Source: Candidatus Hermodarchaeota archaeon
Lineage (GTDB): Archaea > Asgardarchaeota > Hermodarchaeia > Hermodarchaeales > Hermodarchaeaceae
Length of the DNA stretch: 64,000 bases
Direction: 5' to 3'
Assembly: GCA_016839805.1 (NCBI GenBank)
Contig: JAEOTO010000031.1
Span: 32,001 to 96,000, forward strand
Within the stretch, counting starts at the first letter, position 1, and every line of letters begins with the position of its first letter. Position numbers and translations under genes: made by a program. The notes beneath the pieces were generated by a model. That model made no database searches. It was not told the DNA's origin and worked only from the letters and a program-made list of their open reading frames with translations. Shown here one piece after another: positions 22,705 through 54,104 of the stretch.

Positions 22705-24090
22705 ATGACTGCCAATAATGAGAAACCAGAGACACCGCCATGGGCTGGTCGTGATCGCCTAACCTACGGTATACTCTTTTTTCTCTCCGTAATCATCAGT
22801 GCCGCTAGTGCGCTCCTCCCACCCATGACGGGAATCATCGCCCCCATTCTTGGTGTACCCTCTGATGACTGGATTGCCTTGATAGTAACCGTCTTTCTAC
22901 TCATCTCAGGATTTGCTGCTATCCCCTGGGCATACATGGCCGATCGCACAACCCGACGGAAGCTTCTCATTATCAGCACCTTTTTTTGGGTCTTCTGGTT
23001 TATTCCCATTCTACTCCCAAACATATCGTATTGGACCCTCTTTCTCTTCTATAGTTTAGCAGCCATTGGAATAGGTGCGACAGGACCCCTTGCCCTGTCA
23101 ATGACCATTGATTGTGTACCCTCTCACTTCCGGTCCACGACCATTGGCTTATTAGGCACCGCAGCAGGAGCAGGGTATGGCTTGGGCTTCATTATCAGCG
23201 GGCTCCTCGTTGAAACCGTTGGGTGGCAAATGCCCTTCCTCATCATCATAGTAATTGGATTTGCCACTGGATTTTTTCTATTACTCACTCGAGAACCCCC
23301 ACGAGGACAACACGACGAATGCCTGATTGACCTCCATCAGGCTGGTCACGTCTACAGCTACAAGCTAAACCGACAGGACCTGCATCGCATGTGGCGTAGA
23401 CGATCGAATATTTGGCTCATCGTAGTAGGTATAATTGCCATCATTCCCACCGCTGCCTTCGGTGCATGGGCCGTTCGATGGCTTAATGTGGACCATAGCC
23501 TCAGCATTTTTGTTGCAACCATCTTCATGACGCTAGCGTTAGCTAGCCAAATTGCTGGCACAGCTTTTTTTGGTCGATGGGGCGACCGCTTGTTCCAGAA
23601 GGATAAACGTGGACGCACCTATCTCATCCTACTCTGCTGTTTGGCAGCCGGACCACTCCTTCTCATAGCATGTTTCTATCCATTCACCGTAGCTCCTACA
23701 TCCACCATCTTTGACCTCTTCTTAAATCCAATTACCCTGATCTTTTTCATCCTCGTGTTCGCAGGTACTTTCTTTGATGCAGGTATCTCACCTTTGATCT
23801 ATGTAAGCGCAGGAGACATCAATCCACCTGAAATTCGCAGCACCGCTTTATCACTTCACCTTCTAGCGCACGTAATGGGGGTAGCCCTTGGCACTCAACT
23901 AGCGCCTACTTTCGCAGTTCTTTTCTTCGGGGGAATCTACTCACCCGCCTTAGCTGTAATTTGCATTTTCTTTTTCATTGCAGCAGTAACCACAATACCA
24001 ATTGTCCGGGGCATTCGCCAAGATATCACCTCCACAGAAAAGGATGTCAGAAGTCGCATTGAAAATACTTCACCCAGCAAACACGACTAG
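22705..24090 (+). CDS. MFS transporter (spinster-like)
   Basis: YMADRTTRRK, GWQMPF, REPPRG, GRWGDR, PEIRST. Confidence 0.88.
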   Translation: MTANNEKPETPPWAGRDRLTYGILFFLSVIISAASALLPPMTGIIAPILGVPSDDWIALIVTVFLLISGFAAIPWAYMADRTTRRKLLIISTFFWVFWFIPILLPNISYWTLFLFYSLAAIGIGATGPLALSMTIDCVPSHFRSTTIGLLGTAAGAGYGLGFIISGLLVETVGWQMPFLIIIVIGFATGFFLLLTREPPRGQHDECLIDLHQAGHVYSYKLNRQDLHRMWRRRSNIWLIVVGIIAIIPTAAFGAWAVRWLNVDHSLSIFVATIFMTLALASQIAGTAFFGRWGDRLFQKDKRGRTYLILLCCLAAGPLLLIACFYPFTVAPTSTIFDLFLNPITLIFFILVFAGTFFDAGISPLIYVSAGDINPPEIRSTALSLHLLAHVMGVALGTQLAPTFAVLFFGGIYSPALAVICIFFFIAAVTTIPIVRGIRQDITSTEKDVRSRIENTSPSKHD

Positions 24091-52717: not shown

Positions 52718-52760
52718 AGTTTTATTAATGTGAAGACATGTCCAAAGATGTGTGTTAGTA

Positions 52761-53297
52761 ATGTCTAACCTCTGGCGTGATTTACCACCTGGTCCTGACC
52801 CACCCAATCGAATCTACACGATCGTAGAAGTACCTAATGGTGTAAGTAACAAATATGAATATGACATCAAACTTGGAATCTTTCGTCTGGACAGGGTACT
52901 TTATTCTGCACTCTATTTTCCTGGTGATTATGGAATTATCCCCCAAACATGGTATGAGGATAACGATCCTCTTGATATTATGGTGTTGACCACCAAACCC
53001 ACTTTCACTGGCTGCATTCTGGAAGCTCGACCAATTGGTATCTTAACGATGGAAGATGAGAAAGGCGAAGACGATAAGGTAATTGCGGTACCCATCAATG
53101 ACCCCCGGTGGGATGAGGTGAGAAACTGCTCGGATATGGCACATCACCTTCGCGCAGAGATCGCCGATTTTTTTCTGAAATATAAGAGTCTTGAACCGGG
53201 ACGATGGGTTAAGGTAAAGGAATGGCAGGATTCACCTACAGCGATGAAAATCATCGAAAAAGCTATCAAAATGTTCAAAGAACAGTTCAAGAAGTAG
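52761..53297 (+). CDS. ppa: Inorganic pyrophosphatase (family I)
   Basis: KYEYD, LDRVL, YG, EDNDPLD, DEKGEDDK. Confidence 0.95.
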   Translation: MSNLWRDLPPGPDPPNRIYTIVEVPNGVSNKYEYDIKLGIFRLDRVLYSALYFPGDYGIIPQTWYEDNDPLDIMVLTTKPTFTGCILEARPIGILTMEDEKGEDDKVIAVPINDPRWDEVRNCSDMAHHLRAEIADFFLKYKSLEPGRWVKVKEWQDSPTAMKIIEKAIKMFKEQFKK

Positions 53298-53327
53298 CTG
53301 GATCAGATTCCGCTGGTTTCGTACGCT

Positions 53328-53487
53328 GAAGAGTGAATAATCCCATCGTGAACTACCCCGCCCTGACGGACGGAGCTTCCTGCTTCATCCCATCGGCTTG
53401 TGCCGACTGGTCCACAGGCTCTACTCGCCGTTCCGGCGATGTTGCCCGGTCATGGGGTCTTGGTTCTCGGCCACCTGCCGGGACCTC
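53328..53487 (-). ncRNA. IS200/IS605 TnpB-type omegaRNA/reRNA, stand-alone, with putative guide GATGGGATTATTCACTCTTC
   Basis: Minus strand ...GCCTGTGG...GATGAAGCAGGAAGCTCCGTCCGTCAGGGCGGGGTAGTTCAC matches the typical tnpB right-end hairpin and TCAC end (53348). Several hairpins; TTTAAATA box at 53509-53516. Confidence 0.75.
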
Positions 53488-53525
53488 AACTAGGACCTCT
53501 TGAAATCCTATTTAAACACCTCGAT

Positions 53526-54104
53526 TCATTCCCGGTCTGAAAGGGCCGGGGTCTTCTCGAGGTTATAGATAAGAGGTAACAGTCGGGGAACTAAAAACGG
53601 TGTCGTGCGTTTGTATTCAAGATATTCTTCACCAAACCGTGCTTCTAACTGTGGTTCCTCGTACTTCTTGATTCGGATAACCATGATAACCAGAATAATC
53701 AAGGGAACAAGAATTGCCATTCCAAGCGATCGAAAGAGAAGCCCCATCCCAAGGGGAAGAAGCGTGTATCCTAGAGTGATAGGATTACGAATATGGGAGT
53801 AGATTCCAGTAGTAACGAGCAGAGTTGATTGAGCTTGTTTATCAAATGCACCCCAGGGGAGCCCCTTTCCAACTCTACGTAAATGGCGTGTTGCCTTAAT
53901 TCCGACTGCCGCTCCAGATGACATTATACTAGCGCCGATTATGAGGTTGTATGGAAAGGGAGGAAAAGGAGGAAGGAGAAAGATAGAATCCATCCATACA
54001 CCAGCTAGAATAGTGATAATCGGTACAAATAGGAATATGAGAAGATATGGTCCGATGTAACGCAATCGAATGGTTGGGAGAGAGGATGAATTTCTAGGTG
54101 GCAT
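53526..54104 (-). CDS. Isoprenylcysteine carboxyl methyltransferase (ICMT/PEMT) family protein
   Basis: LVTTGIYSHIRNP, EEPQLEARFGEEYLEYKRTTP. Confidence 0.88.
   Translation of the reverse strand: MPPRNSSSLPTIRLRYIGPYLLIFLFVPIITILAGVWMDSIFLLPPFPPFPYNLIIGASIMSSGAAVGIKATRHLRRVGKGLPWGAFDKQAQSTLLVTTGIYSHIRNPITLGYTLLPLGMGLLFRSLGMAILVPLIILVIMVIRIKKYEEPQLEARFGEEYLEYKRTTPFLVPRLLPLIYNLEKTPALSDRE

What the first reader, a model, noticed from the sequence alone, without database searches (positions are those of the whole stretch)
53328..53516. Orphan TnpB-type omegaRNA with its own promoter: candidate trans-acting RNA-guided system
Seen: a ~140-nt GC-rich scaffold on the minus strand with intact hairpins (CCCGG/CCGGG, TCGCCG-GAA-CGGCGA, TCGGC-ACAA-GCCGA, CCTG/CAGG, and CTCCGTCC-GTCA-GGGCGGGG, whose mismatches are all G-U). 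It ends GTAGTTCAC, followed by the guide-position sequence GATGGGATTATTCACTCTTC. There is no tnpA, tnpB or recognisable left end in the window. A TTTAAATA box sits ~30 nt before the scaffold, between two housekeeping genes. Established: TnpB reRNAs derive from the IS200/IS605 right end and use the flank as guide; nuclease-dead TnpB derivatives act as RNA-guided regulators. Inference: a domesticated, independently transcribed guide RNA serving a TnpB/TldR-like protein encoded elsewhere. It also runs convergent to the ppa 3' end.
Basis: partly seen in the sequence, partly recalled or inferred. Interest (0 to 1): 0.85.

Follow-up and report, generated by a model that had tools for sequence, protein, structure and literature searches.

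The report
Gene-less mini-transposon carrying a TnpB guide RNA
The flagged RNA-like scaffold is real, but it is the right-hand two thirds of a 221-bp gene-less IS200/IS605-type mini-transposon, one of at least 10 copies in this Asgard archaeal genome, that recently inserted into the end of a gene, so it is a selfish mobile guide-RNA cassette of a known kind and not a domesticated regulator.

Summary
The hairpins, the ...GTAGTTCAC boundary and the TTTAAATA box all exist as described. The unit runs 53568..53348 (minus strand, 221 bp). It comprises a left-end hairpin, an archaeal TATA box, a 20-nt spacer, a 141-nt omegaRNA scaffold and the right end.

It sits directly 3' of TTAT with no target duplication, inside the last codons of a PEMT-like gene. 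The closest relative has the exact empty site (TTAT|ATTGGGATTATTC), and five other congeners checked also lack the element there.

The genome holds at least 10 tnpB-less copies. Twenty-four copies from six congeneric genomes share the scaffold with 13 compensatory base pairs. The TATA box is held 20-21 nt before the scaffold start, while the spacer sequence is almost randomised.

A full-length 1.3-kb relative on contig C41 has the same left and right ends and an intact D-E-D TnpB. The "guide" is simply the flank, and it has no other TTAT-adjacent target in the genome.

Best reading: a PATE, also called a stand-alone mobilised omegaRNA, that is served in trans by TnpB for homing. This kind is already described. 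Other first-stage notes in this scan flagged the same family on other contigs.

Two sibling copies carry an unexplained 8-9-nt flank duplication, and the assembly contains no transposase gene.

The parts
53569..53572 (-). TTAT target site, the presumed TAM; it is not part of the element
   Evidence: TTAT is present in the empty site of relative G013 immediately before the insertion point. TTAT precedes 19 of the 24 aligned copies; the others have CTAT, TCAT or TTTT.
53348..53568 (-). Complete 221-bp tnpB-less IS200/IS605-type mini element (PATE, or stand-alone omegaRNA cassette)
   Evidence: Exactly this block is missing from G013:C466, and there is no target duplication. The own genome holds at least 10 copies of 216-225 bp, and more occur in 7 congeners.
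53517..53568 (-). Left end: a variable 10-nt linker (53568-53559), the conserved GAGAAGA, the hairpin CCCCGG/CCGGG (53551-53531), then GAATGAATCGAGGTG
   Evidence: It aligns with the left end of the full-length element on C41, which reads TTAT|CGAAAACTGCGAGAAGACCCTGTCC-TTTA-GGGTGGGGATGAATTGCGG, and with all mini copies.
53509..53516 (-). Archaeal TATA box TTTAAATA, the element's own promoter (inherited tnpB promoter)
   Evidence: The genome is archaeal: TBP is present and sigma-70 is not. The box is TTTAAAT[AT] in 15 of 24 copies and a near variant in most of the others. It lies 20 nt (18 copies) or 21 nt (6 copies) before the scaffold start. In the full-length element the same box, TTCAAATA, lies 22 nt before the tnpB ATG.
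53489..53508 (-). Fixed-length, sequence-free spacer between the TATA box and the predicted transcription start
   Evidence: Mean pairwise identity is 0.35, against 0.27-0.30 for unrelated flanks, 0.81 for the scaffold and 0.80 for the TATA box. It shows no match to the flanks or to any other genome site.
53348..53488 (-). OmegaRNA scaffold from TGAGGTCC to GTAGTTCAC. It has 7 helices, including the right-end hairpin (53377-53356) and a closing helix GAG/TTC.
   Evidence: Of the 40 consensus pairs, 96.2% of cells are paired and 13 pairs show changes on both sides. None of 500 shuffles reached this on any measure, and slid controls gave 26-46% paired. The covariance model R1 scores it at 160 bits. 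There is a sub-threshold RAGATH-18 match at 53377-53418.
53328..53347 (-). Guide position: the right flank GATGGGATTATTCACTCTTC, which is the interrupted host gene's own sequence
   Evidence: It continues the PEMT-like reading frame (..PL|MMGLFTLQRTKPAESDPATS*). It is homologous to the sequence after TTAT in the empty site of G013. It has no other genomic match next to TTAT.
53526..54104 (-). PEMT/ICMT-like host gene, now ending inside the element (last 14 codons IYNLEKTPALSDRE* come from the left end)
   Evidence: Pfam PF04191 matches at 6e-11. The frame was read. The orthologues run on through the insertion point.
53287..53347 (-). Cut-off native 3' end of the PEMT-like gene (about 20 codons plus the stop), overlapping the ppa stop by 11 nt
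   Evidence: The frame continuity and its similarity to the G013 tail PLILGLFARQREKIGENDPATS* were read.
52752..53297 (+). ppa (inorganic pyrophosphatase), the convergent neighbour; not part of the element
   Evidence: Pfam PF00719 matches at 5e-57.

Best explanation
Window 53568..53348 (minus strand) is a non-autonomous IS200/IS605-family mini element, a PATE or stand-alone mobilised omegaRNA. It arose from a tnpB-only element by loss of almost the whole tnpB gene. That loss fused the left end, with its TATA box, to the last ~140 nt, which encode the omegaRNA scaffold and the right end.

It inserted 3' of TTAT in the tail of a PEMT-like gene after this species split from its closest sampled relative.

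Proposed working, all inferred:
- The TATA box starts transcription about 22-24 nt downstream, at the G/A of TGAGG. That is exactly the scaffold 5' end.
- The transcript runs across the right end into the flank, giving a scaffold plus a flank-derived guide.
- A TnpB made by a full-length sibling binds it in trans. The best candidates are C41:9290-10495 and C22:21764-22960, both D-E-D intact.
- The complex cuts TTAT-GATGGGATTATTC..., the empty allele or the donor joint left after excision. Recombination with a filled copy then restores the element (homing/retention).

Shown: the anatomy, the insertion polymorphism, the copy family, the homology to a full-length element, and structural and promoter conservation.

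Inferred: transcription, TnpB binding in trans, cleavage, and the agent of transposition.
For: - Insertion: exact empty site in G013 with TTAT retained and no duplication. Five further congeners checked (G006, G002, G005, G011, G012) also lack the element at this locus.
- Copies: at least 10 tnpB-less copies in the own genome with unrelated flanks, all ending at ...TTCAC. The family is present in 8 of 14 congeners.
- Full-length relative: the element on C41 has the same TTAT target, the same left end and the same right end. Its tnpB stop codon lies inside GGGGTAGTTCAC.
- Origin: read as codons, the mini scaffold still resembles the TnpB C-terminus. SPERRVEPVDQSAQADGMKQEAPSVRAG* compares with SPREPRVGPVELSALAEASKQEAPSFRAG*.
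- Structure: 13 of 40 pairs are compensatory, 96.2% of cells are paired, and 0 of 500 shuffles reach this. Many one-sided changes are C-G to U-G, which keep pairing only on this strand.
- Covariance model: it scores the full-length tnpB 3' ends at 89 and 72 bits over the whole model.
- Promoter: the TATA box is conserved (0.80), the spacer length is fixed at 20-21 nt, and the spacer sequence is near random (0.35).
- Partner: the C41 TnpB is a close relative of ISDra2 TnpB (E 7e-68) with D190/E274/D356 and the zinc finger.
[quoted passage not shown] Stand-alone mobilised omegaRNAs work in trans with compatible effectors (PMC10691335, citing Altae-Tran 2021).
- Co-occurrence: the two genomes richest in mini copies, G000 and G006, also carry the cognate tnpB clade.
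Against: - There is no transcript evidence for this locus.
- No Y1 TnpA, serine recombinase or Cas1 was found in the assembly, which is 87% complete. The only Y1 tnpA in 15 genus genomes belongs to an element with unrelated ends. What moves the family is therefore unknown.
- The 5' half of the mini scaffold is only structurally similar to the C41/C22 tnpB 3' regions, not by sequence. Cross-recognition by those TnpBs is therefore unproven.
- Four congeners have mini copies but no cognate-clade tnpB in their incomplete assemblies.
Confidence: 0.85

Rival explanations
1. Domesticated, trans-acting guide RNA. On this view the host keeps this locus as an independent guide-RNA gene that steers a TnpB or a nuclease-dead TldR-like protein to a regulatory or defence target.
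For: It has its own TATA box and an intact scaffold, with no nuclease gene in cis. tnpB genes lie elsewhere in the genome. Two tnpB genes with the same TAGTTCAC end have Gly at the RuvC-II Glu position.
Against: - The site is empty in the closest relative and in five further congeners checked, and a complete left end is present.
- The guide equals the interrupted gene's own sequence, and no other TTAT-adjacent match of 7 nt or more exists in the genome.
- It is one of at least 10 dispersed copies, each with a different flank.
- The cognate-clade TnpBs keep D-E-D.
- A Gly at RuvC-II is the known "rearranged" state, not necessarily a dead one (PMC10691335). The 3' ends of those two genes are not hit by the scaffold model.
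Confidence: 0.03
2. Inert relic. This copy is a dead insertion that is neither transcribed usefully nor mobilised any more. Its apparent intactness only reflects recent descent from an active master copy.
For: No transposase of any known TnpB-associated type is in the assembly. There is no RNA evidence for the locus. Conservation among copies can be explained by selection on master copies and not on each individual insertion.
Against: This copy is the best match to the family model (160 bits). It has the consensus TATA box, a 20-nt spacer, both end hairpins and the TTAT target. Intact cognate tnpB genes are present. Neutral positions within the family are near saturation while the promoter and scaffold are held, so propagating lineages need both.
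Confidence: 0.1

Closest known systems
PATEs, or stand-alone mobilised omegaRNAs, of IS200/IS605 (Dyall-Smith 2011, PMC3119063; Meers 2023, PMC10055086; Altae-Tran 2021 as summarised in PMC10691335)
   Same: It has no gene and keeps both the left-end and right-end hairpins. It is multi-copy, inserts 3' of a short motif without duplication, carries the omegaRNA, and needs TnpB (and a transposase) in trans.
   Different: The host is an Asgard archaeon. The omegaRNA is placed behind the element's own archaeal TATA box at a fixed 20-21 nt, so the scaffold 5' end should be the primary transcript start. No cognate transposase was detected in the genus genomes searched.
ISDra2 TnpB-omegaRNA (PDB 8H1J/8EXA) and GstIS homing systems
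   Same: The candidate partner TnpB is a close homologue (E 7e-68) with intact D-E-D. The scaffold overlaps the tnpB 3' end in the full-length element. The guide is the right-end flank, and the TAM is the left-end target motif.
   Different: In the mini element the scaffold is uncoupled from coding sequence. Its 5' half has drifted to a GC-rich hairpin. The TAM here is TTAT, inferred and not assayed.
sotRNAs of IS1341-type tnpB genes in Halobacterium (PMC4615843)
   Same: Both are archaeal non-coding RNAs from the 3' end of tnpB-only elements.
   Different: Those RNAs are sense-overlapping transcripts inside an intact tnpB gene. Here tnpB is deleted and the tnpB promoter itself is brought next to the RNA.
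TldR, nuclease-dead TnpB repressors with fixed guide RNAs (PMC10705468)
   Same: Both are TnpB-family scaffolds with a guide, which could act away from the nuclease gene.
   Different: This element is not immobilised, is not conserved in place, has no conserved target, and its partner nucleases are catalytically intact.
RAGATH-18 (RF03064), the core of IS607 TnpB reRNAs (PMC11061315)
   Same: The outer stem with its k-turn-like CCUGUGGA...GAUGAAGCAGGAA matches the consensus.
   Different: The score is 26.5 bits, below the 44.9-bit gathering threshold, and the inner part is much shorter. The element ends and the TTAT target are IS605-like, not IS607-like (AGGAG TAM).

Membership tests
IS200/IS605 non-autonomous mini element (PATE) | Subterminal imperfect hairpins at both ends, and asymmetric ends without terminal inverted repeats | tested here: met
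   The left-end hairpin is at 53551-53531 and the right-end hairpin at 53377-53356. Both are conserved and covary across copies.
IS200/IS605 non-autonomous mini element (PATE) | Insertion 3' of a specific tetra- or pentanucleotide without target-site duplication | tested here: met
   The G013 empty site reads TTAT|ATTGGG and the filled site reads TTAT|element|GATGGG. TTAT precedes 19 of 24 copies. Two sibling copies deviate, with an 8-9-nt flank repeat.
IS200/IS605 non-autonomous mini element (PATE) | No protein-coding gene; multi-copy; ends shared with a gene-bearing element | tested here: met
   It is 221 bp. There are at least 10 copies. The left and right ends are shared with the C41 tnpB element.
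IS200/IS605 non-autonomous mini element (PATE) | A Y1 (HUH) TnpA in the same genome able to mobilise it | tested here: not met
   PF01797 was not found in G000, which is 87% complete. It was found in 1 of 15 genus genomes, in an element with unrelated ends. Absence from incomplete MAGs is not proof of absence.
TnpB omegaRNA (reRNA) | The scaffold ends at the right-end boundary, and the guide is the adjoining flank | tested here: met
   All copies lose similarity exactly after TTCAC.
TnpB omegaRNA (reRNA) | Homology to the 3' end of a tnpB gene plus its right end | tested here: met
   BLAST gives 79% identity over the last 87 nt to C41. The covariance model scores 89 and 72 bits over its full length. 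The codon relic resembles the TnpB C-terminus.
TnpB omegaRNA (reRNA) | Conserved secondary structure with covariation | tested here: met
   Thirteen pairs are compensatory, 96.2% of cells are paired, and 0 of 500 shuffles reach this.
TnpB omegaRNA (reRNA) | Transcribed and bound by TnpB | not testable with these tools
   Only contig-level RNA data were available. Run X14 holds scaffold-family pieces from other loci or organisms.
TldR-type domesticated guide RNA | A nuclease-dead partner, an immobilised locus conserved across species, and a guide matching a conserved target | tested here: not met
   The cognate TnpBs keep an intact D-E-D. The site is empty in relatives. No target was found.
RAGATH-18 (RF03064) | A score at or above the Rfam gathering threshold | tested here: not met
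   The score is 26.5 bits against a threshold of 44.9 bits.

The most novel reading that the evidence does not exclude
The family may spread or persist in this Asgard lineage without any TnpA-type transposase, by a TnpB/omegaRNA-driven copying route. On this reading, the 8-9-nt right-flank duplications that replace the left-end linker in two copies are repair scars of that route. The mini elements would then be self-promoted guide cassettes that parasitise TnpB alone.
Probability: 0.08. Interest if true: 0.75.

Novelty: new member of a known kind. Interest (0 to 1): 0.27.

Why it matters
The main value is a corrected annotation: this is not a regulator but a recent mobile insertion that truncated a PEMT-like gene.

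The family is nonetheless a clean natural data set. It offers 24 diverged copies in which neutral positions are nearly saturated, while a TATA box, its exact spacing and the whole omegaRNA fold are preserved. That is comparative evidence that expressing the guide RNA is part of what lets a gene-less IS605 derivative persist, as the homing model predicts.

It also supplies a compact, promoter-defined archaeal (Asgard) omegaRNA with a likely TTAT TAM and two candidate TnpB partners. Finally, it sharpens the open question of how tnpB-only and gene-less elements move in genomes where no TnpA is found.

Tried and rejected
- Rfam at gathering threshold: no family matched the element. Only a sub-threshold RAGATH-18 match and a meaningless lncRNA match appeared.
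- Single-sequence folding: not significant (z = -1.9).
- Guide targets: no other full or seed match next to TTAT. The best exact 12-mer, at C38:18975, has no TAM.
- The hypervariable 20-nt spacer as a second guide or as flank-derived: no identity or complementarity to the flanks beyond 8 nt, and no other genomic match. Rejected.
- Sequencing runs: DNA contigs of the probable source study (X1, X2) show the filled site only, and no joint across the element was seen. RNA-library contigs (X14, a wetland metatranscriptome) carry only scaffold-family pieces with other flanks. There is nothing for this locus, and contigs cannot show transcript starts or ends.
- Transposase search: Y1 TnpA, serine recombinase and Cas1 were not found in the own assembly. 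The G013 Y1 tnpA element has unrelated ends.
- IS607 membership was considered because of the RAGATH-18 similarity. It was rejected on the ends and the target motif.
- A bacterial sigma-70 reading of TTTAAATA was dropped once the genome proved archaeal.

Full report
**What is in the sequence.**

Read on the minus strand, the region is laid out as follows:

| Feature | Coordinates | Sequence / note |
|---|---|---|
| Target | 53572-53569 | TTAT |
| Linker | 53568-53559 | CTATAACCTC (10 nt) |
| Left-end core and hairpin | hairpin 53551-53531 | GAGAAGA, then CCCCGG..CCGGG |
| TATA box | 53516-53509 | TTTAAATA |
| Spacer | 53508-53489 | 20 nt |
| Structured block | 53488-53348 | 141 nt, TGAGGTCC...GGGGTAGTTCAC |
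| Flank | from 53347 | GATGGGATTATTCACTCTTC |

**It is a repeated mobile unit with two defined ends.**

- The own genome is an 87%-complete, 2.3-Mb, 50-contig assembly in which the window is C21:32001-96000. It holds at least 10 copies without any gene.
- With longer queries, similarity starts about 220 nt upstream, inside ORF 53526..54104. In every copy it stops exactly at the final C of GTAGTTCAC.
- The left part carries a hairpin like the right-end hairpin, and almost every copy is preceded by TTAT.
- The elements measure 216-225 bp.

**The site is empty in relatives.**

- The closest congener (G013, about 88% identity in the flanks) matches the ppa side and the PEMT-like side of my query. 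It lacks exactly query positions 595-817, which correspond to window 53346-53568.
- Its sequence reads ...CCTCTTAT|ATTGGGATTATTCGCC..., against ...CCTCTTAT|[221 bp]|GATGGGATTATTCACT... here. The insertion is therefore precisely 3' of TTAT, with no target duplication, which is the IS200/IS605 signature.
- Five further congeners in which the locus was read (G006, G002, G005, G011, G012) also lack the element there.
- The insertion removed the last ~20 codons of a PEMT/ICMT-like gene (Pfam PF04191). Those codons are still readable in frame after the right end. The left end now supplies 14 new codons and the stop.

**Origin from a tnpB element.**

- The genome has about 12 tnpB genes.
- One of them, at C41:9290-10495, sits in a ~1.3-kb unit. 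The unit starts TTAT|CGAAAACTGC-GAGAAGACCCTGTCC-TTTA-GGGTGGGGATGAATTGCGGAC-TTCAAATA. The tnpB ATG follows 22 nt after that box.
- The unit ends ...GAAGCAGGAAGCTCCGTCCTTTAGGGCGGGGTAGTTCAC, with the tnpB stop codon inside the terminal TAGTTCAC.
- Its left end, its TATA-like box and its right end all align with the mini element.
- Translated in the old frame, the mini scaffold still resembles the TnpB C-terminus: SPERRVEPVDQSAQADGMKQEAPSVRAG* against SPREPRVGPVELSALAEASKQEAPSFRAG*.
- A covariance model built only from mini copies scores the 3' ends of the C41 and C22 tnpB genes at 89 and 72 bits across the whole model.
- The mini element is therefore an internal-deletion derivative that keeps the left end with its promoter, the omegaRNA and the right end.
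- The C41 TnpB is a close homologue of ISDra2 TnpB (E 7e-68). It keeps D190/E274/D356 and the CxxC..CxxC zinc finger. The C22 paralogue (69% identity) does as well.

**The RNA is under selection.**

- I aligned 24 mini copies from six genomes of the genus (alignment A1).
- The RNAalifold consensus has 40 pairs in 7 helices. It includes a closing helix between the scaffold's first GAG and the terminal TTC.
- 96.2% of cells are paired and 13 pairs show double (compensatory) changes. On all five measures, none of 500 column shuffles reaches the observed value. Sliding the 3' partners by 1-3 columns drops pairing to 26-46%.
- Many single changes are C-G to U-G. These preserve pairing only on this strand, which fits an RNA (or top-strand) structure.
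- The caveats of the shuffle control for related sequences apply. The slid controls and the count of pairs with double changes are the stronger evidence.

**The promoter claim holds, but as an archaeal promoter inherited from tnpB.**

- The genome encodes several TBPs and no sigma-70. Earlier notes in this scan call it an Asgard archaeon.
- TTTAAATA fits the archaeal TATA consensus TTTAWATA, which is normally centred about 26-27 nt upstream of the start (established knowledge).
- Across the 24 copies the box is TTTAAAT[AT] in 15 and a near variant in most of the others. The distance to TGAGG is 20 nt in 18 copies and 21 nt in 6.
- Mean pairwise identity by segment:

| Segment | Identity |
|---|---|
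| Spacer | 0.35 |
| Unrelated flanks | 0.27-0.30 |
| TATA box | 0.80 |
| Scaffold | 0.81 |

- A TATA box held at a fixed distance from the first paired base, across a spacer free to mutate, is what one expects if transcription must start at the scaffold 5' end (predicted G53487/A53486).
- In the full-length element the same geometry puts the start at the tnpB ATG, giving a leaderless mRNA.
- These are inferences. No transcript was observed.

**The guide.**

- The 20 nt after the right end are simply the interrupted gene.
- In the whole assembly there is no other site with TTAT followed by 7 or more guide bases. There is also no 16-20-nt near-match of note.
- The only sensible target is the uninterrupted allele, or the donor joint left after excision. 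This is the homing/retention role shown for IS605 TnpB (PMC10055086).
- That paper already notes that PATEs often encode omegaRNAs that must be served in trans. PMC10691335 summarises that stand-alone mobilised omegaRNAs function in trans with compatible effectors.
- The kind is therefore known. This is a new, well-resolved member in an Asgard archaeon.
- The G013 allele differs from the guide at positions 1, 2, 14 and 16. This guide would therefore act on conspecific empty alleles and not across species.

**Open points.**

- No Y1 TnpA, serine recombinase or Cas1 is in the assembly.
- Among 15 genus genomes, only G013 has a Y1 tnpA, and it lies in an IS605 with unrelated ends.
- These MAGs are 72-91% complete and lose repeats, so absence is not shown. 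Even so, the mobilising enzyme is unidentified.
- Cognate-clade tnpB (at least 67% identity to C41) occurs in G000, G006, G010, G004 and G013. The two genomes with many mini copies, G000 and G006, both have it, while four genomes with 1-3 mini copies do not. This is weakly supportive at best.
- Public runs gave no transcript for this locus and no empty-allele joint. A wetland RNA library holds scaffold-family fragments with other flanks.

**An oddity in sibling copies.**

- In copies C41:21397-21621 and C4:7580-7805, the first ~10 nt of the left end are replaced by an 8-9-nt copy of the element's own right flank (AGCCTCCAC; AGTGTCCG).
- Empty sites in relatives show that this flank was single-copy directly after TTAT before insertion.
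- None of the 14 copies from other genomes shows the feature.
- An earlier first-stage note read the C4 case as a guide aimed at the tbp promoter. The empty-site comparison shows instead that it is a duplication made at, or after, insertion.
- A scar of imperfect repair at a TnpB-cut donor joint is one possible cause. I could not test this.

**Verdict.**

The omegaRNA identity and the "own promoter" are supported. The "domesticated trans-acting system" is not. The locus is a recent insertion of a PATE-type, self-promoted omegaRNA cassette, which is a new member of a known kind.

Noticed in passing
G000:C41:21397-21621 (L071:1501-1725, minus) and G000:C4:7580-7805 (L008:1419-1644, plus): Two sibling mini elements have the first ~10 nt of the left end replaced by an 8-9-nt duplicate of their own right flank (AGCCTCCAC; AGTGTCCG). 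Empty sites in G002, G005, G006 and G013 show the flank was single-copy directly after TTAT. This is not expected from TnpA peel-and-paste. It may be a repair scar of TnpB-induced homing, or a sign of another copying route.
   Followed up: partly
whole genome G000 and 14 congeners: The genome has twelve tnpB genes and at least 10 mini elements, but no Y1 TnpA, serine recombinase or Cas1 was detected (assembly 87% complete). The only Y1 tnpA in the genus set (G013:C208:451-807, L095) sits in an IS605 with unrelated ends.
   Followed up: partly
G000:C26:95408-96727 (+) and G000:C46:3292-4353 (+): Two further tnpB genes end in ...TAGTTCAC but have Gly in place of the RuvC-II glutamate (LVLGALD / IALGALN). 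This resembles the catalytically rearranged RIIr clades described in PMC10691335. Their 3' ends are not hit by the mini-element covariance model.
   Followed up: no
window 53287-53347 and 53526-53568: The insertion swapped the last ~20 residues of the PEMT-like protein for 14 element-encoded residues. The native tail overlapped the convergent ppa stop by 11 nt. Whether the truncated enzyme still works is unknown; the tail is poorly conserved among congeners.
   Followed up: partly
G000:C22 ~22960-23100 (L017), upstream of tnpB C22:21764-22960: The second cognate-clade tnpB element lies directly after what looks like a tRNA 3' end (..GGTTCGAATCCCGGAGCGGGCGCCA). It lacks the usual left-end hairpin, so its left end is different or truncated.
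   Followed up: no
window 53377-53418: The outer stem CCUGUGGA...GAUGAAGCAGGAA matches the k-turn stem of Rfam RAGATH-18. That family is reported to occur only with IS607 TnpB, yet here the motif is in an IS605-type element. The score is sub-threshold (26.5 bits).
   Followed up: partly
G000:C4:6961-7476 (tbp) next to the mini element at C4:7580-7805: A mini element sits about 100 bp upstream of one of the TBP genes. It is absent from G013 at that site.
   Followed up: partly
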